From: Chloroflexota bacterium
GTDB taxonomy: Bacteria > Chloroflexota > Chloroflexia > Chloroflexales > Herpetosiphonaceae
Direction of reading: 5' to 3'
Assembly: GCA_020161265.1 (NCBI GenBank)
Contig: JAIUOC010000003.1
Span: 171,024 to 235,023, forward strand
Length of the DNA: 64,000 bases
The translations under genes and the position numbers were made by a program. Below the pieces are notes generated by a model that worked only from the letters and a program-made list of their open reading frames with translations, was not told the origin of the DNA and made no database searches. Every line of letters starts with the position of its first letter. The first letter of the stretch is position 1. Positions 37,056 through 44,560 of the stretch are shown here, in pieces.

Positions 37056-38042
37056 TTATTGGGCCAGCACCTGGTGGCAAACATTGCAAACCAGTTGTTC
37101 TTTATGCGCCACCAAACTGGCTTGGCGGCCACAGGTTTGGCAATGGGGCAATTGAATCATTGGCTCAAATAAGGGCGAGATCGCAATCAAATGCGGTTGG
37201 TGTTTGCTGCCAATATGCAGCACTGGCGTTTGAATTGTGGCTACGCTGACAGTTTCGGCAGCCAACGACAAGGCATAGCGATATTCTTGCTCGTCGAGTA
37301 GGCGTTTACGCTCTTCTTCGAGGGCATATTGCTTGTTCGATTCGCCCTCTTTGGCTCCGAGCGCTAGGCCCGAATCTTCTTCGAGCGCATCGTAGAAGGC
37401 ATTGATCCGCGCTTTTTCAACTGCTAGCAATTGGGCCAGTTGGGCTTCGTGCAGGGCTTTTTGGGGGTAGAGCAAGCGCTCAAGCCAGCGGCGGGCATGG
37501 TGCAAGGCCACATTCACATGCTCATCGGTCAAGCCAGTCGAGGGCAACGGCGTGAGCTGATCGCGTAAATTGGTAATGTCGGTGATGGTTGGCCAAACCT
37601 GGCCAGTTTCATAATCGACACAACAGGCCACCATTTTTTCCTCAATCACCTCGCGTTCAAAGCGAATACGAAAGGTAATTCGCAACACAATGTGCTGTTG
37701 CAACCCGCTCAGTTGCAAGTTTGGGCCTTGAATTAATTGAGCTTCCTGCACATCGGCCAGCAATGCCGCTTGATCGGGATACCATTCCAAGCGAGCGCGA
37801 TGAGTTGGCCGCCCACGTGAGCGCAGTTGTTCGGCTAAACGCAAGGTCAACGATGAGTTGGGCGAAAGTAATTGAAGATCAGGGTCGAGCGCCGCCACCT
37901 GCTTATCGGTTGTTACCAAAACCGTTTCTTTACCAAAAACTCGCGCCAAACTACCAGGAATAGTTAGTGTCCAAGTGGTTGGGCTGGTTTGTTCAACCCC
38001 AATATGTAAATCCGCCGCTGCTCGGCGCAAAAAATCTTCCAT
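37056..38042 (-). CDS. Hypothetical protein with C-terminal CxxC-X13-CxxC zinc ribbon
   Basis: LPHCQTCGRQASLVAHKEQLVCNVCH at the C-terminus; an acidic coiled-coil middle region. Confidence 0.5.
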   Translation of the reverse strand: MEDFLRRAAADLHIGVEQTSPTTWTLTIPGSLARVFGKETVLVTTDKQVAALDPDLQLLSPNSSLTLRLAEQLRSRGRPTHRARLEWYPDQAALLADVQEAQLIQGPNLQLSGLQQHIVLRITFRIRFEREVIEEKMVACCVDYETGQVWPTITDITNLRDQLTPLPSTGLTDEHVNVALHHARRWLERLLYPQKALHEAQLAQLLAVEKARINAFYDALEEDSGLALGAKEGESNKQYALEEERKRLLDEQEYRYALSLAAETVSVATIQTPVLHIGSKHQPHLIAISPLFEPMIQLPHCQTCGRQASLVAHKEQLVCNVCHQVLAQ

Positions 38043-38155
38043 AAACTTCCATTCAGCGTATTGGGCAATCTATCAGCATCATGCTATTTTACCATGCCCA
38101 AAAGTTTGCTATACTTGCCTTCAACCTTAATATCTTTTACCTGTGTGGGGAGCCT

Positions 38156-40405
38156 ATGCGTCTGATCAAACCATTCATCCTCCTAATGGTGTTAGCAGGC
38201 TTTTGTCTGCCAAGCGCCTCCGCCAACACTCCCGACCGTCTCGCAAGCAAAGCCGATTCAGCCCTGCTGGCAAAGCTGAATGCTGGCCAACAAGTACCAA
38301 CGCTGGTGCTTTTGCAAGCCCAAGTTGATACCAACTTTGCTGATCGTTTGGCAAGCAAAGAGGCCAAAGGCGCTGCGGTCGTTGCTGCTCTTCGCCAACA
38401 AGCCCAACGCGATCAAACCCCGTTGCTCGCTGAACTCAGCAACCGCGGGATTCAATCCGAGGGTTTTCTCTCGGTTAACGCCTTGTATGCGACGCTTGAT
38501 TTAGCCAGTGCCCAATGGCTGGCCGAACAAGCCAGCGTCAAGCAATTGATCGAAGATTCAATTGTGGTCACGGTCGAAAAACCAGCTGCCGAAACCAATC
38601 CAGCACCCCAAGCAGTCAATACCACGACCTGGGGGGTTAACTATGTCAAAGCGCCCGAAGTGTGGGCTAAAGGCATTACTGGCCAAGGGATTGTGATTGC
38701 TGGCGAAGATACTGGGGTGCGCTGGACTCACGCTGCTTTGAAAAATAAGTATCGCGGTTGGGATGGTACAACTGCCAGCCACGATTACAACTGGTACGAC
38801 GGTATTCGTACCTCATTAGGCGGAACTAACCCCTGTGGGATTGCGATTAACGCACCTTGTGATGATCACTCGCACGGAACTCACACGGTTGGTACGGTGG
38901 TTGGCGATAACGGCACAGGTGAACAAATTGGGGTTGCGCCTGGCGCAAAATGGATCGCCTGCCGTAATATGGATGCTGGCAACGGTACGCCTGCAACCTA
39001 CATTCGCTGTATCGACTGGATGCTGGCTCCATTCCCTGCTGCTGGTACGAGTGCTCAAGGTGACCCCAGCAAAGCACCCCACGTTATCAACAACTCATGG
39101 GGCTGTCTAGCATCAGAAGGCTGTACCAATACTCCTTCTGATGGCATTCAAACCTCAGTTCAAAATGTGACCAATGCAGGGATTATGTTTGTCGCCTCGG
39201 CAGGGAACGATGGTAGCAGTTGTGCCACTATCACCACGCCAGTCGCGATCTATCCTGAAAGCTTTGTGGTTGGCTCACATACCTCAACTGGGGCAATTTC
39301 TGGGTTTAGCAGCCGTGGCCCAGCTACCAATAATGGTGCCAGCCGGATTGGCCCTGATATTGCTGCGCCTGGCTCATCTGTGCGTTCGGCCATCAATGGC
39401 AGTGATAGTGACTATGGTTCAAGTTCGGGCACGAGTATGGCTAGCCCGCATGTGGTTGGGGTTGTAGCCTTGTTGTGGTCGGCTCGCCCAGAACTGCAGG
39501 GCCAAGTTGATCTGACTCGCGCGATCTTGCAAGAAACCGCTACTGCTGCGCCTTCAACCCAAACTTGTGGTGGCGTTGCTGGCACAAGCATTCCAAACAA
39601 TACCTTTGGTCATGGCTATGTCAATGCCCTGAATGCGATTGCTCCAACCTTGCAAGGCAGCATCACGGTTAATGGCACGGCAGCAACCTCAGCGACAATT
39701 CGCTTGGAAAATAGCGTTGGCGTGGTTGAATTTGGCAAAACCACTGGTGTCTATAGCACTAGCTTGCCAGCAGGCCTTTACAGCGCAACCGTCACTGTGC
39801 CAAATGAAACACCGATTACTCGCCAAGTAACAATTGTCAAAGGCCAAGTTGCCACCGAAAACTTTGAATTTGGCGATGTGACTGGTACTGTTAGCGGTCA
39901 TGCAACGCTCAATGGCACTGCTCGCGCTGGTGTTAGCATTACCGCCAACCCCGGTAACTTCACCACCGAAACCAACGCTAACGGCGATTATAACTTAGCC
40001 TTAGCCCCGGGAACCTATACGATTTCTAGCGAATTTATGGCCTTGGAAACCCAAGTGGCAACGGTCACGGTGGTTCTCAATCAGACCGTCATCCAAGATT
40101 TTGATTTCGCGACCACTCAAACCGTCAATATTCAAAACTTCCGGTTTAGCCCTAGCCCAATTACGGTTACCTTGGGAACGAGCGTCTTGTGGCGTAACCT
40201 TGATGCTTCAACCCACACCACGACTCGTAGCCAAACACCGTTCATTTGGGATTCAGACAACCTCAGCCAGAACCAAGATTATGCAGTAACCTTCGATCAA
40301 GTTGGTACCTTCAGCTATGTTTGTAGCTTGCATGGCAGTATGCAAGGCATAGTTGTGGTAACGCCACCACAGCAAAAAACCTATCTGCCGTGGACAACTA
40401 AATAA
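38156..40405 (+). CDS. Secreted subtilisin-like serine protease (S8) with C-terminal beta-sandwich domains and a terminal amicyanin-like type-1 copper (cupredoxin) domain
   Basis: Signal peptide MRLIKPFILLMVLAGFCLPSASA with a GGGGAG RBS. Catalytic D (GEDTGV), H (HGTHTVGT) and S (GTSMASPHV). The last 90 aa are NLDASTHTT...YVCSLHGSMQGIVVV, with H and C-x2-H-x2-M ligands as in amicyanin. Confidence 0.75.
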   Translation: MRLIKPFILLMVLAGFCLPSASANTPDRLASKADSALLAKLNAGQQVPTLVLLQAQVDTNFADRLASKEAKGAAVVAALRQQAQRDQTPLLAELSNRGIQSEGFLSVNALYATLDLASAQWLAEQASVKQLIEDSIVVTVEKPAAETNPAPQAVNTTTWGVNYVKAPEVWAKGITGQGIVIAGEDTGVRWTHAALKNKYRGWDGTTASHDYNWYDGIRTSLGGTNPCGIAINAPCDDHSHGTHTVGTVVGDNGTGEQIGVAPGAKWIACRNMDAGNGTPATYIRCIDWMLAPFPAAGTSAQGDPSKAPHVINNSWGCLASEGCTNTPSDGIQTSVQNVTNAGIMFVASAGNDGSSCATITTPVAIYPESFVVGSHTSTGAISGFSSRGPATNNGASRIGPDIAAPGSSVRSAINGSDSDYGSSSGTSMASPHVVGVVALLWSARPELQGQVDLTRAILQETATAAPSTQTCGGVAGTSIPNNTFGHGYVNALNAIAPTLQGSITVNGTAATSATIRLENSVGVVEFGKTTGVYSTSLPAGLYSATVTVPNETPITRQVTIVKGQVATENFEFGDVTGTVSGHATLNGTARAGVSITANPGNFTTETNANGDYNLALAPGTYTISSEFMALETQVATVTVVLNQTVIQDFDFATTQTVNIQNFRFSPSPITVTLGTSVLWRNLDASTHTTTRSQTPFIWDSDNLSQNQDYAVTFDQVGTFSYVCSLHGSMQGIVVVTPPQQKTYLPWTTK

Positions 40406-40428
40406 CCTATCACCTATTCAATGGTACT

Positions 40429-40466
40429 ATGACACAGTCTGTACAACAGGCTGTGTCATTGTTTTA
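40429..40466 (+). terminator. Rho-independent terminator (atgacacag...ctgtgtcat, then TGTTTT)
   Basis: A 9-bp stem, a 13-nt loop and a T-rich tail directly after the S8 protease gene. Confidence 0.55.
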
Positions 40467-40486
40467 GCTCGCTTTTTGGAAGCCAC

Positions 40487-42394
40487 ATGCAGCAACATTC
40501 TCGATTAAAGCTTGGTTTAGCGTGGCTGAGCTTAATTGGGCTTTATAGCCTGACGCTCACCCAAATTCATACCTTCGATGCCTACTCCTACGCGACGGCG
40601 GTGCAAGCCAAGCCATGGCGTGAATCGTTTCATCCCCATCATTTGTTGTATGGGCCGCTTGGTGAGATTGTTTATTGGCTCAGCCAAGGTTTAGGCTATC
40701 GAGGTATGGCGTTTGGGCCGTTGCAAATGTTGAATGTATTAGCTGGAGCCAGCGGCGTGATCATTTGGTGGCGTTTGCTTCAGCGTTTGACCAACCAGCC
40801 TTGGCTGGCAACCAGCGGCAGTGTGCTGGTTGGCGGAGCCTACGCTTGGTGGTATTACGCAGTTGAAGTCGAGGTCTATACCTTGGCGGGTTTGTTTTTA
40901 ATTATTGCCACTGGTTTATTGATTCGACTCGCCGAAGCTCCCAAAACACTGAGCAATTGGCGCTGGCTTGGGCTAGCCCATAGCGCGGCAATCCTTTTTC
41001 ATCAAACCAATGTCCTTTGGCTTGTGCCGGTGCTGGCGGTTTGGCTGAGCGCTGCGTGGGGCACTACCGCTTGGCAACAACGCTGGCAGGCATTTTTGCA
41101 GTATGCCATGGTTGGGCTGCTGGTGGTTGGTGGCAGCTATGCCATCGTGATGTTTGGCTTGAGTGGCTTCCGCACATGGCCACAAGTGCAACAGTGGCTG
41201 TTTGAATATGCCAATACTGGTTTGTGGGGCACAACCAATGCCAATACGTTTGCCAATTTGCTTAATGGCTGGCAACATACCATCCATGGTTGGTTAGGTG
41301 GCGCGGTGTTACTGGCCAGCCTTGGCCTGATCGCTTGGCGTTGGCGTTTGATGTGGCGACAATCACGAATGTTAGTGGTGTTGGCCGCAACTTGGCTCAT
41401 TACCTATAGCCTCTTTTTTGGCTGGTGGGAGCCAGATAATATTGAATTTTGGATTGCTTGCTTGCCGCCGTGGGCTTTATTGATCACGCTTAGTTTACAT
41501 ACGATCAAGCTGCCGCAGCGCCGTTGGTGGCAGCCCGCCCTAAGTTTGGCCTTAGTTGGAATGAGTCTTAGCAATGGCTGGCAAATTTATGCCAATGGCG
41601 CTGCGGCCAACGATCAAGATCGCCAAATTGTTACTGAATTGGCCAAAACTGGTACGTCCAACGATTTTTATTTCGTGCCGAATGGCTTGCAAGCTTTGTA
41701 TGCCGAATATGAATTTGAGCGCCCAAACAGCTTACCACTCAGCGTTAGCCCTGGCGATTGGCAGCATGGTTGCTTGGAAATTAGCGCTAAAATCGTCGAT
41801 ACCACCAGTGCTGGCTATACGGTTTGGCTTGATCAACAGGCAGTCGAGCCTAGCCCAATTTTGCTCGAACGCTATGGGCTAGAGCAATCAGCAGTTGCCG
41901 CATGTTTTGCCCCATTTTTAGCCCAATCCCAGCCAATTACCCTGACCCATGCGCGTTATCTTAAGCTCGACCCGATTCCTCAAGGCTTGCCTGATTGGCA
42001 CTGGCAGAATTGGAGTTTGGGCTGGCGCGAGAATTTTATTACTGCTAGCACTTGGGGCGCTGGCTGGACATTTATCCCACAGCAAGACCCACATTTGCTT
42101 AGCCCACGGATTAATCTGGCGAGCAGTCAATGGCGTAGCCTAGAAATTACTATGGCCAGCACCTTGCCAAATCAACATGGCCAACTGTATTGGATGGCTC
42201 CAGGCGAGGGTGCAACCGAAGATCATTCGATCTCATGGGATGTGATTGGTGATGGAGCGCTGCATACCTACACCCTTGATCTTAGCCAAATCCCAACTTG
42301 GCAAGGCCCAATCGGCATGCTGCGGCTTGATCCGGTTGTGGCGGGTGCTGAGCAGCAAACCGTCACGATTCAGCGCCTACGCCTGCTGCCCTAA
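40487..42394 (+). CDS. Polytopic membrane protein (GT-C-fold glycosyltransferase-like N-terminal domain, large extracytoplasmic C-terminal domain)
   Basis: About 10 TM helices in the first 340 aa with aromatic-rich loops, then a soluble domain of about 290 aa. The family assignment is tentative. Confidence 0.4.
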   Translation: MQQHSRLKLGLAWLSLIGLYSLTLTQIHTFDAYSYATAVQAKPWRESFHPHHLLYGPLGEIVYWLSQGLGYRGMAFGPLQMLNVLAGASGVIIWWRLLQRLTNQPWLATSGSVLVGGAYAWWYYAVEVEVYTLAGLFLIIATGLLIRLAEAPKTLSNWRWLGLAHSAAILFHQTNVLWLVPVLAVWLSAAWGTTAWQQRWQAFLQYAMVGLLVVGGSYAIVMFGLSGFRTWPQVQQWLFEYANTGLWGTTNANTFANLLNGWQHTIHGWLGGAVLLASLGLIAWRWRLMWRQSRMLVVLAATWLITYSLFFGWWEPDNIEFWIACLPPWALLITLSLHTIKLPQRRWWQPALSLALVGMSLSNGWQIYANGAAANDQDRQIVTELAKTGTSNDFYFVPNGLQALYAEYEFERPNSLPLSVSPGDWQHGCLEISAKIVDTTSAGYTVWLDQQAVEPSPILLERYGLEQSAVAACFAPFLAQSQPITLTHARYLKLDPIPQGLPDWHWQNWSLGWRENFITASTWGAGWTFIPQQDPHLLSPRINLASSQWRSLEITMASTLPNQHGQLYWMAPGEGATEDHSISWDVIGDGALHTYTLDLSQIPTWQGPIGMLRLDPVVAGAEQQTVTIQRLRLLP

Positions 42395-42456
42395 GTTGCT
42401 TAGCGAGTGTGTTAAAATAAACTGAATTTTTTGCATGCTATGGCGAGGAACTAGCG

Positions 42457-42735
42457 ATGATCACCGCATTTGTGCATATTCAAACTGAACCAAGCGCTGC
42501 CAACGGCGTAGCGGCGGGATTAACCGCGATTGAAGGTGTGGCTGAAGTCTATTCGGTCACTGGCGAATGGGATATTATCGCGATTGTGCGCTTGGCCGAT
42601 TATGATCAGCTCGCCAAAACTGTGCCCGACCAAATTGGCAGCCTCAAAGGCATTGTGCGCACCTCAACCGTTTTGGCTTTTCGCTCGTTTACCAAAGAAG
42701 AAATCGCCGCCACGTGGGATATTGGCTTATCATAG
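42457..42735 (+). CDS. Stand-alone Lrp/AsnC ligand-binding (RAM) domain protein
   Basis: 92 aa, MITAFVHIQTEP...VAEVYSVTGEWDIIAIVRLADYDQLAKTV..., a ferredoxin-like AsnC_trans_reg pattern with no HTH. Confidence 0.7.
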   Translation: MITAFVHIQTEPSAANGVAAGLTAIEGVAEVYSVTGEWDIIAIVRLADYDQLAKTVPDQIGSLKGIVRTSTVLAFRSFTKEEIAATWDIGLS

Positions 42736-42747
42736 AAGGAACTAACG

Positions 42748-42903
42748 ATGAATCGTACACTGGTGCAAATTATTTTGGCTATTCTGGCCTTGTTGTTTGT
42801 TGGCATGCTGTTTAAGGGTCTTTTCAAGCTCTTAATTATTGGCTTCATTATTTATTTGGGCTTTACGGCATTTCGGTTACTCGGCAAACAGCGGGCAGGA
42901 TAA
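42748..42903 (+). CDS. Small hydrophobic peptide (51 aa, two predicted TM helices); absent from the ORF track
   Basis: MNRTLVQIILAILALLFVGMLFKGLFKLLIIGFIIYLGFTAFRLLGKQRAG. RBS GAAGGAA 6 nt upstream, in a context that mirrors the preceding gene's start (gaggaactagcgATG versus aaggaactaacgATG). Confidence 0.5.
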   Translation: MNRTLVQIILAILALLFVGMLFKGLFKLLIIGFIIYLGFTAFRLLGKQRAG

Positions 42904-42907
42904 AGCG

Positions 42908-43387
42908 ATGTCGCAAGCCTTAGCCCAAGCTGTGATTTCCGCCCTTGCGCAACGCCAATGGACGCTGGCGACCGCTGAATCGTGTACTGGCGGCTTGGTG
43001 GGCGATTGGCTGACCAATATTGCTGGTAGCTCAGTTGTCTATTTGGGCGGCATTATTGCCTATGCCAATAGCGCGAAGGAAACGTTGCTGCAGGTGCCAA
43101 CATCAACTTTGGCGACCGTTGGCGCGGTGAGTGCTGAAACTGCCTTGGCCATGGCGCAAGGAACGGCTCAAGCACTCGGCGCGACGGTTGGACTAAGCAC
43201 GACTGGCATTGCTGGCCCAGGCGGCGGTAGCCCTGAAAAGCCAGTCGGCTTAGTCTATTTGGGTTTGTACTTGCCCAATCAAGGCTTGGTCGAGCAGCAT
43301 ATTTGGCCCTACGATCGTTTGGGCAACAAACAAGCTTCGGCTAAACGGGCGCTCGAATGGCTGCTCGAACAACTTGGCTCAGCCTAA
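42908..43387 (+). CDS. CinA C-terminal domain protein / nicotinamide-nucleotide amidohydrolase PncC
   Basis: LATAESCTGGLVGDWLTNIAGSS and GIAGPGGGS motifs. Confidence 0.8.
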   Translation: MSQALAQAVISALAQRQWTLATAESCTGGLVGDWLTNIAGSSVVYLGGIIAYANSAKETLLQVPTSTLATVGAVSAETALAMAQGTAQALGATVGLSTTGIAGPGGGSPEKPVGLVYLGLYLPNQGLVEQHIWPYDRLGNKQASAKRALEWLLEQLGSA

Positions 43388-43771
43388 TTTCGGGCAATCG
43401 GCAGGAAATTGTTGGCAATGGGGTGTATCGCCTGGGATGCGATGGCGATATTTGACCACCAACTTGTAGACGCTATCCTGAATGTGGCGAATACCCCAAA
43501 GTTGATAAAAGCCTAAGGCCAAACGCTTGCCCGTGGCGATGCTCAGGGCTGCATTAACCGCACCTGCCCCACGCCATAATTTACCATCGCTGGTTTGCAG
43601 CCATGCCGCCTGCTCACATTGAGCGTAGGTCAAGCCAACCGATTCGGGCACGCCAGGTTTTTGAAATGGCTCAATCCGAATTCGTTGTTGACGATCGAGG
43701 TGTTTGATCCAACGGGCGGCGCGTGTGCAAAAATCGCAGGTTCCATCAAAAATTAACAAGGCTTGCGACAT
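43379..43771 (-). CDS. Thiol-disulfide oxidoreductase, DCC family (DUF393)
   Basis: LIFDGTCDFCTRAARW (DGxCxxC) at the N-terminus; 130 aa. Confidence 0.75.
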   Translation of the reverse strand: MSQALLIFDGTCDFCTRAARWIKHLDRQQRIRIEPFQKPGVPESVGLTYAQCEQAAWLQTSDGKLWRGAGAVNAALSIATGKRLALGFYQLWGIRHIQDSVYKLVVKYRHRIPGDTPHCQQFPADCPKLG

Positions 43772-43783
43772 AGGAGTCTCCTA

Positions 43784-44560
43784 ATGGCTTTTCGCTCGTT
43801 CTGGGGGCGGCGCTGGCATGCCTGGACACCCAATCGGGCCGAAATTCAGCCGATTGAGGCTGGCGTGCGGCTCACCCTGCATCAGCATGATCGCATGGTT
43901 TATAGCGATGCGCAATTGGATGATTATGTTGAAAACGGTTTGGGCTGGCATGCTCCAGTACGTTTGCAGCTCGAAGCGCGATTTTTAGGCGATCCTCAGG
44001 ATTTTGTGGGTACGGCAGGCTTTGGTTGGTGGAATGATCCGGCTGGCACAGGCCTGCGGCGTTTGCGCCTACCCCAAGCCTTGTGGTTTTTTTATGCGAG
44101 CGCCGCCAGCCAACTTGAATTAACTGCCAACGGCGTGAGCAATGGTTGGCTAGCAATGAGCTTTGTACCGCGCTTGGGCTGGTGTTTGAGCTTGTTAACG
44201 CTCGCTCCCTTGGCCTTGGTGCTGAGCCAAAACACGTGGTTACGCCAACGCTGTTGCTTGCCATTGTTGCAACTGGCCTTGGGCGTGCGCAGCCAGCCAA
44301 TCAAACTCAGTTGGAATACGTGGCAGCAGTATCAAATCGACTGGTACGCTGATCGGGTGGAATTTTGGCTTGATCAGCAATTAGTGCTCCAAACCGCCAA
44401 CGCGCCAACCAGCGATTTGGGTTTGATTCTATGGCTCGATAACCAATATGCCCAAGTTTCGCCCCGTGGAATTGTTCATAATGGTATACTTAATCATCAA
44501 AATCAAGGCTTAGAAATTCGGCATTTAATAATTTCTGACCTAACATCACCTGCACACTAG
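43784..44560 (+). CDS. Hypothetical protein (W-rich, possible beta-sandwich/lectin-like)
   Basis: ORF with GGAG 7 nt upstream of ATG 43784; no recognisable motif. Confidence 0.5.
   Translation: MAFRSFWGRRWHAWTPNRAEIQPIEAGVRLTLHQHDRMVYSDAQLDDYVENGLGWHAPVRLQLEARFLGDPQDFVGTAGFGWWNDPAGTGLRRLRLPQALWFFYASAASQLELTANGVSNGWLAMSFVPRLGWCLSLLTLAPLALVLSQNTWLRQRCCLPLLQLALGVRSQPIKLSWNTWQQYQIDWYADRVEFWLDQQLVLQTANAPTSDLGLILWLDNQYAQVSPRGIVHNGILNHQNQGLEIRHLIISDLTSPAH

What the first reader, a model, noticed from the sequence alone, without database searches (positions are those of the whole stretch)
38156..40405. Subtilase fused to a C-terminal amicyanin-like blue-copper domain
After the S8 catalytic domain and two beta-sandwich (carboxypeptidase-regulatory-like) domains, the last 90 residues carry a type-1 copper ligand set. 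This is a His in STHTT and C-x2-H-x2-M in YVCSLHGSMQG, identical in spacing to amicyanin. A redox copper centre on a secreted protease is unusual. It could target the enzyme to a redox partner or an electron-transfer surface, or be a domain co-opted for binding.
Basis: partly seen in the sequence, partly recalled or inferred. Interest (0 to 1): 0.5.

Follow-up and report, generated by a model that had tools for sequence, protein, structure and literature searches.

The report
Secreted subtilase carrying a blue-copper domain
A secreted protease of the predatory soil bacterium Herpetosiphon really does end in a small blue-copper (cupredoxin) domain with all four copper-binding residues; this fusion is rare, conserved and confined to one lineage, and its purpose is unknown.

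Summary
Window 38156-40405 (+) is one monocistronic gene for a 749-aa secreted protein. Its parts in order are: signal peptide, propeptide, S8 catalytic domain (Asp185/His240/Ser427), two transthyretin-like beta-sandwiches, an 85-residue cupredoxin, and a conserved tail YLPWTTK.

The cupredoxin passes both Pfam cupredoxin thresholds. It models as an 8-strand barrel closest to amicyanin (TM 0.72). It carries His687, Cys723, His726 and Met729 with amicyanin spacing.

The ligands are invariant in every S8-cupredoxin homologue found, down to about 40% identity, and the domain is under purifying selection (dN/dS about 0.1). The fusion was found only in Herpetosiphon species, Herpetosiphonaceae metagenome fragments and one other Chloroflexia protein. 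It is not amicyanin proper: the family score is far below cutoff.

The domain belongs to a very large pool of mobile extracellular cupredoxin modules: stand-alone copies, tandem arrays, and fusions to redox and non-redox enzymes. In sister subtilases the same C-terminal slot holds anchoring or binding modules.

My best reading is a copper-loaded accessory module for stability, docking or retention that plays no part in proteolysis. Copper binding and function are inferred, not shown. The architecture is already machine-annotated in public databases but has not been studied. Interest is moderate.

The parts
38088..38115 (+). Promoter-like site (TTTACC-16-TATACT with TG extension), inside a roughly 90-nt ultra-conserved non-coding leader
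   Evidence: Consensus scan. The region is nearly 100% identical in 7 Herpetosiphon genomes with frame-breaking indels. No Rfam match.
38156..38224 (+). Sec signal peptide, residues 1-23 (MRLIKPFILLMVLAGFCLPSASA)
   Evidence: Read from the sequence. Helix 5-16 in the AF2 model. GGGGAG at 38147-38152. The cleavage site is inferred.
38225..38650 (+). N-terminal propeptide (folded about 27-135) plus a disordered linker (140-155), up to the mature N-terminus
   Evidence: AF2 alpha/beta unit with pLDDT above 93, then pLDDT below 50 at 140-155. The pro-subtilisin E entry 3whi aligns from query residue 100. No Pfam hit when scanned alone.
38651..39646 (+). S8 subtilase catalytic domain, residues 166-497: Asp185 (38708-38710), His240 (38873-38875), oxyanion Asn351, Ser427 (39434-39436)
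   Evidence: Pfam PF00082 E 4e-39. The triad residues are invariant in a 47-sequence alignment. PDB subtilisins match at E down to 2.6e-23. AF2 pLDDT about 90-98.
39650..39880 (+). Beta-sandwich domain 1, residues 499-575 (transthyretin-like)
   Evidence: Seven predicted strands, pLDDT about 85-88. Weak repeat similarity to domain 2, E 0.002. Only a sub-threshold PEGA hit.
39881..40108 (+). Beta-sandwich domain 2, residues 576-651 (CarboxypepD_reg)
   Evidence: PF13620 39.6 bits against a cutoff of 32.3 when scanned alone. Seven or eight predicted strands.
40109..40363 (+). Cupredoxin (type-1 copper) domain, residues 652-736, with ligands His687 (40214-40216), Cys723 (40322-40324), His726 (40331-40333) and Met729 (40340-40342)
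   Evidence: PF13473 and PF00127 above cutoffs. Amicyanin and the NirK C-terminal cupredoxin are the best PDB matches. The AF2 domain model has 8 strands, pLDDT 74.6. Ligands are invariant. dN/dS is 0.08-0.14.
40364..40405 (+). C-terminal tail, residues 737-749, ending YLPWTTK (40382-40402), plus the stop codon
   Evidence: YLPWTTK is invariant in the six Herpetosiphon genome orthologues. Related [YF][LFI]P[LIMW]..[RK] tails occur in about 14% of sister S8 clusters against 1 of about 1075 control ORFs.
40429..40469 (+). Intrinsic-terminator-like hairpin (14-bp stem) with a T-rich tail
   Evidence: It separates this gene from the downstream membrane-protein gene at 40487.

Best explanation
The gene encodes a secreted modular subtilisin-family protease of a Herpetosiphon strain (96% identical to H. 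aurantiacus DSM 785 ABX05834/A9B6W6).

Shown:
- The architecture is signal peptide, propeptide, catalytic domain with an intact Asp/His/Ser triad, two transthyretin-like beta-sandwiches, a cupredoxin with a complete type-1 copper ligand set (His687, Cys723, His726, Met729), and a conserved YLPWTTK tail.
- The cupredoxin is kept under purifying selection, and its ligands are invariant in every fused homologue.
- The domain belongs to a very large pool of mobile extracellular cupredoxin modules.
- Sister subtilases fill the same C-terminal slot with anchoring or binding modules.

Inferred:
- The domain binds copper.
- It acts as a metal-rigidified, protease-resistant accessory module that stabilises the enzyme or docks and retains it on a surface or partner (the producer's envelope or prey material).
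- It takes no part in peptide-bond hydrolysis, which needs no electrons.
For: Identity and architecture.

Conservation:
- Orthologues with the same architecture occur in H. aurantiacus, giganteus, geysericola, llansteffanensis, NSE202 and a MAG.
- Cupredoxin dN/dS is 0.08-0.14 at dS about 1, similar to the beta-sandwich domains.
- His/Cys/His/Met are invariant in P0004, P0020, P0281 and P0282, at about 37-42% identity to the window domain where measured (P0004, P0020).
- By contrast, 4 cupredoxin repeats in SLH-anchored tandem arrays have lost the ligands. Loss therefore does happen where copper is not needed.

Slot analogy: sister S8 proteins carry SLH, dockerin, a T9SS tail, GH9 plus CelD_N, CAP, DUF11 or extra CarboxypepD_reg domains at the C-terminus. 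P0020 has the order S8, cupredoxin, SLH.

Module mobility: 47,940 cluster representatives match the domain profile. Relatives are stand-alone, tandem with SLH or PKD, or fused to GSDH, beta-propeller, BNR-dockerin or RTX units.

No redox context: none of the ten neighbouring ORFs scanned in the window (31305-44560) has a copper or electron-transfer family, and the genes called around P0020 show none either. The gene has its own promoter-like site and terminator.
Against: - No partner, substrate or localisation is known, so the docking or stability role rests on analogy only.
- A pure spacer would not need its copper ligands. Their strict retention may instead point to a real redox or copper-dependent function.
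- The cupredoxin is poorly modelled in the full-length prediction (pLDDT 45-75), and the domain-only model is moderate (74.6). Neither surface features nor ligand geometry could be examined.
- Herpetosiphon orthologues have no SLH or other recognised anchor. If retention occurs, its mechanism is unidentified.
Confidence: 0.5

Rival explanations
1. Tethered electron carrier. The cupredoxin is a working electron-transfer protein displayed outside the cell. It either stays attached to the protease or is released by autoprocessing, so that the gene acts as a two-function precursor. It serves an extracellular or envelope redox chain unrelated to proteolysis.
For: - The complete, invariant type-1 ligand set is under purifying selection.
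- The closest solved relatives are true electron carriers or tethered donors: amicyanin, and the C-terminal cupredoxin of the NirK/multicopper-oxidase entries 6hbe and 9cck.
- Relatives are fused to a PQQ-type sugar dehydrogenase, where a redox role is logical (L051).
- Wall-anchored tandem arrays exist in Chloroflexia.
Against: - S8 proteases have no redox cofactor.
- No redox or copper genes lie nearby in the window or next to P0020.
- The junction between sandwich 2 and the cupredoxin is short (…FDFATTQTVNIQNF…), with no long linker that would suggest release.
- Among the best 80 of 553 genome hits, the Herpetosiphon genomes contribute only this protein.
Confidence: 0.2
2. Relic or purely structural spacer. 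The domain is only another beta-sandwich spacer taken from the local module pool. It does not bind copper in vivo, and its ligand residues persist for fold reasons or by chance.
For: - It sits in series with two other beta-sandwich spacers.
- Cupredoxin repeats without ligands exist elsewhere, so the fold tolerates ligand loss.
- In the window protein the Asn that usually follows the first His ligand is Thr (HTTT), whereas other Herpetosiphon species have HN or HD.
Against: - All four ligands are invariant across seven Herpetosiphon sequences at dS about 1, and in four more distant fused clusters at about 37-42% identity.
- Chance retention of four specific residues over that distance is unlikely.
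Confidence: 0.12
3. Copper or redox control of the protease. Copper loading or the oxidation state of the domain gates maturation, activity or release, for example by coupling proteolysis to oxic or copper-rich conditions during predation.
For: - The only support is the conserved pairing of a metal site with a protease that also carries a conserved C-terminal tail.
- The S8 clade has eight invariant or near-invariant cysteines, consistent with redox-sensitive disulfides.
Against: - No precedent was found in the searched literature.
- Type-1 sites are coordinatively saturated electron-transfer centres, not sensors.
- The model predicts no contact between the cupredoxin and the catalytic domain at useful confidence.
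Confidence: 0.08

Closest known systems
Amicyanin (Paracoccus denitrificans / P. versutus; PDB 1aac, 1id2)
   Same: - The 8-strand cupredoxin fold: best Foldseek hits, TM 0.72 and rmsd about 2.5 A over 85 residues.
- The ligand pattern: His in the ...W.N....H.. strand, and C-x2-H-x2-M in the C-terminal loop.
   Different: - Only 25-28% identical, and TIGR02657 scores 33-38 bits against a cutoff of 110.
- Amicyanin is a free periplasmic carrier encoded in the methylamine dehydrogenase (mau) cluster (established knowledge). Here the domain is the C-terminus of a protease, and nothing methylamine-related appears among the ten neighbouring ORFs scanned.
C-terminal cupredoxin of three-domain copper nitrite reductase / multicopper oxidase (Thermus scotoductus 6hbe; Nitrosopumilus maritimus 9cck)
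   Same: - An amicyanin-type cupredoxin covalently tethered to the C-terminus of an extracytoplasmic enzyme.
- These are the best sequence hits in the PDB (E 2e-8 and 4e-8), and the fold matches.
   Different: The host enzyme there is itself a copper redox enzyme, and the tethered domain is understood as its electron donor (my own knowledge). An S8 protease has nothing to reduce or oxidise.
Modular secreted subtilases with C-terminal accessory beta-domains (bacillopeptidase F-like clade; Tk-SP 3afg; deseasin MCP-01 3vv3)
   Same: - The same catalytic family and overall layout: signal peptide, propeptide, S8 domain, then C-terminal beta-sandwich modules.
- Some sources name orthologues 'Bacillopeptidase F'.
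- From my own knowledge, the Tk-SP beta-jelly-roll binds Ca2+ and adds stability, and the deseasin PKD domain binds substrate. Both are precedents for a metal-binding or binding accessory module.
   Different: None of these carries a cupredoxin or a transition-metal redox site.
Extracellular cupredoxin modules of Chloroflexia, CPR bacteria, actinomycetes and archaea (halocyanin-like; tandem cupredoxin arrays with SLH or PKD)
   Same: - The same domain family, 40-51% identical to the window domain.
- Mostly C-x2-H-x2-M.
- Extracytoplasmic, and often attached to wall anchors.
   Different: - These are stand-alone proteins or arrays of 3-12 copies. None of the 150 top representatives contains an S8 domain.
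- TIGR03102 (halocyanin) scores 32-36 bits against a cutoff of 93.8.

Membership tests
Peptidase S8 (subtilase) | Profile match above the curated threshold | tested here: met
   PF00082 135 bits against a cutoff of 21.8, full-length match 1-288/288. PDB subtilisins at E down to 2.6e-23.
Peptidase S8 (subtilase) | Catalytic triad in the order Asp-His-Ser, plus the oxyanion Asn | tested here: met
   Asp185 (GEDTG), His240 (HGTH), Asn351 and Ser427 (GTSMASPH) are invariant in a 47-sequence alignment.
Peptidase S8 (subtilase) | Proteolytic activity | not testable with these tools
   Needs an enzyme assay.
Cupredoxin / type-1 blue copper protein (PF00127, PF13473) | Profile match above the curated threshold | tested here: met
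   PF13473 34.2 bits (cutoff 27) and PF00127 28.7 bits (cutoff 21.2) in the whole protein; 33.3 and 33.7 bits for the domain alone.
Cupredoxin / type-1 blue copper protein (PF00127, PF13473) | Eight-strand Greek-key beta-barrel | tested here: met
   The AF2 domain model has 8 strands, pLDDT 74.6. Foldseek against the PDB gives 245 hits at E<=1e-3, and the 50 best shown are cupredoxin-fold proteins or domains; amicyanin scores TM 0.72. Model confidence is moderate.
Cupredoxin / type-1 blue copper protein (PF00127, PF13473) | His, Cys, His and Met ligands at the homologous positions | tested here: met
   His687, Cys723, His726 and Met729 align with the amicyanin ligands and are invariant in all fused homologues.
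Cupredoxin / type-1 blue copper protein (PF00127, PF13473) | Trigonal His2Cys geometry with an axial Met in three dimensions | not testable with these tools
   Model coordinates are not exposed, and AF2 does not place metals.
Cupredoxin / type-1 blue copper protein (PF00127, PF13473) | Copper binding, an LMCT band near 600 nm and a small A-parallel EPR signal | not testable with these tools
   Needs recombinant protein.
Amicyanin proper (TIGR02657 equivalog) | Score above the equivalog cutoff | tested here: not met
   33.4 bits (whole protein) and 38.4 bits (domain) against a cutoff of 110.2.
Amicyanin proper (TIGR02657 equivalog) | Genomic association with methylamine dehydrogenase (mau) genes | tested here: not met
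   The ten neighbouring ORFs scanned are an SPFH/vault-like protein, Leu/Phe-tRNA-protein transferase, an epimerase, TetR, an MpaB-like oxygenase, AsnC, CinA and three without a Pfam hit, including the downstream polytopic membrane protein. No mau genes.
Halocyanin (TIGR03102) | Score above the subfamily cutoff | tested here: not met
   32.2 and 36.2 bits against a cutoff of 93.8.
CarboxypepD_reg / transthyretin-like beta-sandwich (two copies claimed) | Profile match above threshold for each copy | tested here: inconclusive
   Copy 2 (576-651) is met: PF13620 39.6 bits against a cutoff of 32.3. Copy 1 (499-575) has no significant hit. It is supported only by a 7-strand AF2 sandwich and weak similarity to copy 2, E 0.002.

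The most novel reading that the evidence does not exclude
The copper site is functionally coupled to the protease or to predation. One form of this reading is a redox- or copper-gated extracellular protease. Another is a protease that plugs into a cell-surface cupredoxin network or delivers copper or electrons at the prey interface. In either form, a type-1 copper centre would have a role outside classical electron-transport chains. A separate possibility is that the conserved [YF]-L-P-[LW]-x-x-[RK] C-terminal tail is an undescribed Chloroflexota sorting signal or cis-inhibitory signal on secreted subtilases.
Probability: 0.12. Interest if true: 0.7.

Novelty: new variant of a known kind. Interest (0 to 1): 0.38.

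Why it matters
Type-1 copper domains are textbook electron carriers, and finding one conserved on a hydrolase raises the question of what else the fold and its metal are used for. If the copper only stabilises or docks the enzyme, this is a clean natural example of a redox module recruited as a structural or targeting module in the secretome of a predatory bacterium. It could also serve as a coloured, very stable fusion tag for extracellular enzymes. If the copper has a redox or regulatory role, it would link extracellular proteolysis to copper or oxygen status, which has no precedent that I could find. The wider context is itself barely studied: tens of thousands of extracellular cupredoxin modules, including arrays of 3-12 copies on wall anchors.

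Tried and rejected
- A homology search with the 108-aa domain alone returned nothing because of the word index. It was replaced by a profile search of cluster representatives and a genome scan.
- A third homology search, with the C-terminal 285 aa of P0004, returned mostly short fragments. It did add two more fused clusters, P0281 and P0282.
- A Foldseek search of afdb50, meant to census UniProt architectures, was unavailable.
- Ligand geometry could not be measured because model coordinates are not exposed to scripts.
- Full-length AF2 modelled the cupredoxin and tail poorly, because only 6 sequences cover that region. No domain-domain or tail-to-active-site contact can be claimed.
- Four literature searches found no paper on a subtilase-cupredoxin fusion or on the tail motif. 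The Herpetosiphon predation genome paper mentions serine protease only generically and copper not at all.
- The neighbourhood gave no copper or redox link, either in the window or around P0020.
- Rfam and a folding test on the ultra-conserved 5' region were negative. A riboswitch or other structured leader is rejected.
- Membership in amicyanin proper or halocyanin is rejected on curated cutoffs.
- A lipoprotein signal is rejected on reading the sequence: Phe at position -1 of 'LAGFC' does not fit a lipobox.
- The longer ORF start at 38081 is rejected because of frame-breaking indels in orthologues.
Full report
**1. What is at the coordinates**

The ORF list shows one long + strand ORF, 38081-40405. 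Three observations make it the true start.
- A GGGGAG Shine-Dalgarno lies at 38147-38152.
- A promoter-like TTTACC-16-TATACT site lies at 38088-38115, inside the nominal ORF extension.
- The 90 nt upstream are almost invariant in seven Herpetosiphon genomes yet carry 1-nt indels that break the frame.

A 14-bp hairpin with a T-rich tail follows the stop codon (40429-40459). The gene is therefore monocistronic, and the product is 749 aa.

**2. Domain anatomy**

Pfam on the whole protein gives:
- Peptidase_S8, residues 176-487, E 4e-39.
- Cupredoxin_1, residues 652-735, 34.2 bits against a cutoff of 27.
- Copper-bind, residues 655-735, 28.7 bits against a cutoff of 21.2.
- A sub-threshold CarboxypepD_reg-like hit at 586-650.

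A full-length AlphaFold2 model built on 47 homologues (mean pLDDT 83.9) shows:
- a signal helix;
- a confidently folded alpha/beta propeptide (27-135);
- a disordered linker (140-155);
- the S8 domain (166-497, pLDDT about 90-98);
- two 7-strand beta-sandwiches (499-572 and 577-651, pLDDT about 85-88);
- a poorly resolved C-terminal domain, because only six sequences cover it.

Scanned alone, sandwich 2 passes CarboxypepD_reg (39.6 bits against 32.3). Sandwich 1 has no significant hit but is weakly similar to sandwich 2 (E 0.002).

Asp185, His240, Asn351 and Ser427 are invariant across the alignment. The PDB sequence search returns ordinary subtilisins.

**3. The cupredoxin**

- Sequence: for the last 108 aa the best PDB sequence matches are the C-terminal cupredoxin of the entries 6hbe and 9cck, then amicyanins (E 2e-8 to 1e-5). 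His687 aligns with the N-terminal His ligand, and C723-S-L-H726-G-S-M729 aligns with C-T-P-H-P-F-M.
- Fold: a domain-only AF2 model (pLDDT 74.6) has eight strands. Foldseek against the PDB returns amicyanin first (TM 0.72, rmsd about 2.5 A, probability 1.00), then NirK C-terminal domains, the N. maritimus cupredoxin 5fc9, plastocyanins and pseudoazurins.
- NCBIfam places the domain nearest amicyanin and halocyanin, but far below their cutoffs. 'Amicyanin-like' describes fold and loop spacing, not membership.

**4. Organism and conservation**

The protein is 96% identical to H. aurantiacus DSM 785 ABX05834 / UniProt A9B6W6, annotated 'Peptidase S8 and S53...' or 'S8 family serine peptidase'.

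A genome scan with the domain profile finds the same fusion in H. aurantiacus, H. giganteus, H. geysericola, H. llansteffanensis, strain NSE202 and a Chloroflexia MAG (L001-L006).

Codon-level comparison with these orthologues gives:

| Region | dN/dS | Note |
|---|---|---|
| Cupredoxin | 0.08-0.14 | dS about 1 |
| Beta-sandwiches | 0.02-0.20 | comparable to the cupredoxin |
| S8 domain | 0.05-0.11 | somewhat tighter |

The four ligands never change.

More distant fused proteins also keep His, Cys, His and Met, at about 37-42% domain identity where measured (P0004, P0020). They are:
- P0004, P0281 and P0282. These are metagenome clusters (two fragmentary); P0281, the only one carrying a taxon name, is Herpetosiphonaceae. 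Layout: S8, one sandwich, cupredoxin, tail.
- P0020, from Chloroflexia. Layout: S8, cupredoxin, three SLH repeats.

In contrast, 4 repeats in SLH-anchored tandem cupredoxin proteins have lost the ligands. I take this as evidence that the copper site is selected for in the protease fusions.

**5. How unusual is it**

Among the roughly 240 S8 relatives listed in two searches, only the clusters above carry a cupredoxin. The other members of this S8 clade fill the C-terminal position with different modules:
- extra CarboxypepD_reg domains;
- CAP;
- GH9 plus CelD_N;
- SLH;
- dockerin;
- T9SS sorting tails;
- DUF11;
- Kelch or FG-GAP.

These are mostly anchoring, targeting or binding modules.

The cupredoxin profile itself matches 47,940 cluster representatives. 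The top 150 are all tandem arrays of 3-12 copies, and none holds an S8 domain. Some of these arrays carry PKD domains.

The 74 closest genomic relatives outside Herpetosiphon are mostly small stand-alone cupredoxins from Chloroflexia, CPR bacteria, actinomycetes and archaea. Longer ones are fused to:
- SLH;
- a PQQ-type sugar dehydrogenase plus CHRD;
- a beta-propeller;
- BNR plus dockerin;
- RTX repeats;
- Lipoprotein_15 repeats.

The domain is thus a promiscuous extracellular module. Its attachment to a protease is rare and lineage-restricted.

No paper on such a fusion was found.

**6. Mechanism**

Shown: the architecture, the intact catalytic and copper-ligand residues, purifying selection, lineage restriction, absence of copper or redox neighbours, and the nature of the modules in the equivalent slot of sister enzymes.

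Inferred:
- The domain binds copper.
- Because proteolysis needs no electrons, the domain serves as a rigid, metal-stabilised accessory module that stabilises the enzyme or docks and retains it.

I put about 0.95 on the identity claims, about 0.7 on copper binding in vivo, and about 0.5 on the accessory-module reading.

Rivals are a genuinely redox-active tethered or released carrier (0.2), a copper-free relic spacer (0.12) and copper or redox gating of the protease (0.08).

**7. Side finding: the tail**

- YLPWTTK at the extreme C-terminus is invariant in the six Herpetosiphon genome orthologues.
- Sister S8 proteins end in related tails within the last nine or so residues, whatever their last folded domain. 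Examples are YLPLVLR, FMPLLRR, FLPLVQR, FLPLVWR, YLPLVVK and YLPLLMR.
- Counts are 16 of 120 and 17 of 120 listed clusters, against 1 of about 1075 long ORFs in control loci (Fisher p about 5e-13).
- Where taxon names exist, the bearers are Chloroflexota: Herpetosiphonaceae, Anaerolineae, Thermoflexales.
- No transmembrane segment follows, so this is not a sortase-type or PEP-CTERM-type signal.
- The motif resembles the [LVI]-[IFLV]-P-[YFH] 'LIPY/F' motif of intracellular subtilisin propeptides, which lies across the active site and inhibits it (PMC6220982). That is a lead, not a test.
- No paper containing these strings in a relevant context was found.

**8. Verdict**

The structural interpretation is supported, and the functional interpretation remains open.

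Both domains are well known. The architecture is already machine-annotated in public databases, and JGI even names one fragment 'plastocyanin'. It has not been studied.

I rate it a new variant of a known kind, of moderate interest.

Noticed in passing
window 40382-40402; also the C-termini of P0004, P0005, P0007, P0011, P0012, P0028, P0033, P0051, P0071, P0091, P0093, P0094, P0281, P0282, P0315, P0317, P0319, P0325 and others: A short C-terminal tail, [YF]-[LFI]-P-[LIMW]-x-x-[RK], ends about 14% of the listed subtilase clusters of this clade, whatever their last domain. It occurs in 1 of about 1075 control ORFs (Fisher p about 5e-13). Named bearers are Chloroflexota. No transmembrane segment follows. 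It could be a sorting or processing signal, or a cis-inhibitory peptide like the ISP LIPY/F motif.
   Followed up: partly
window 38066-38155: The 5' region of the subtilase gene is almost 100% identical across seven Herpetosiphon genomes in which synonymous sites are near saturation, and it carries frame-breaking indels. It holds a promoter-like site and a leader, has no Rfam hit and no stable fold. It is probably a conserved regulatory region with an unknown regulator.
   Followed up: partly
P0121-P0270; L011, L026 and L055 (Chloroflexia): Proteins made of 3-12 tandem amicyanin-type cupredoxin domains are widespread: all of the top 150 cluster representatives are arrays. Some carry SLH wall anchors or PKD domains. 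479 of 726 repeats keep C-x2-H-x2-M, and 4 repeats in the SLH-anchored arrays have lost the ligands. I know of no described function for them.
   Followed up: partly
L051:3611-7603 (Ca. Methanoperedens); L044:2717-4237; L020:797-5545; L036:3314-4258: The same cupredoxin type is fused to a PQQ-type glucose/sorbosone dehydrogenase plus CHRD and SdrD_B domains, to an NHL/SGL beta-propeller, to BNR plus dockerin, and to RTX repeats. This shows how mobile the module is.
   Followed up: no
window 40214-40219 (His687-Thr688): The residue after the first His ligand is Thr in this strain, in H. aurantiacus and in MAG MFD03066 (L002). It is Asn or Asp in the other four Herpetosiphon genomes, and Asn is usual in cupredoxins. 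This second-sphere position is known (my own knowledge) to tune reduction potential.
   Followed up: no
window 31305-32732 (-): A 475-aa protein has Band_7/SPFH and major-vault-protein 'shoulder' matches and a weak Vault_3 repeat hit. That combination is unusual for a bacterium.
   Followed up: no
window 40487-42394 (+) and 37056-38042 (-): Both immediate neighbours lack any Pfam match. Downstream is a 635-aa protein that reads as polytopic (hydrophobic N-terminal two-thirds, soluble C-terminal part). Upstream and divergent is a 328-aa protein ending in a CxxC...CxxC zinc-ribbon-like motif.
   Followed up: no
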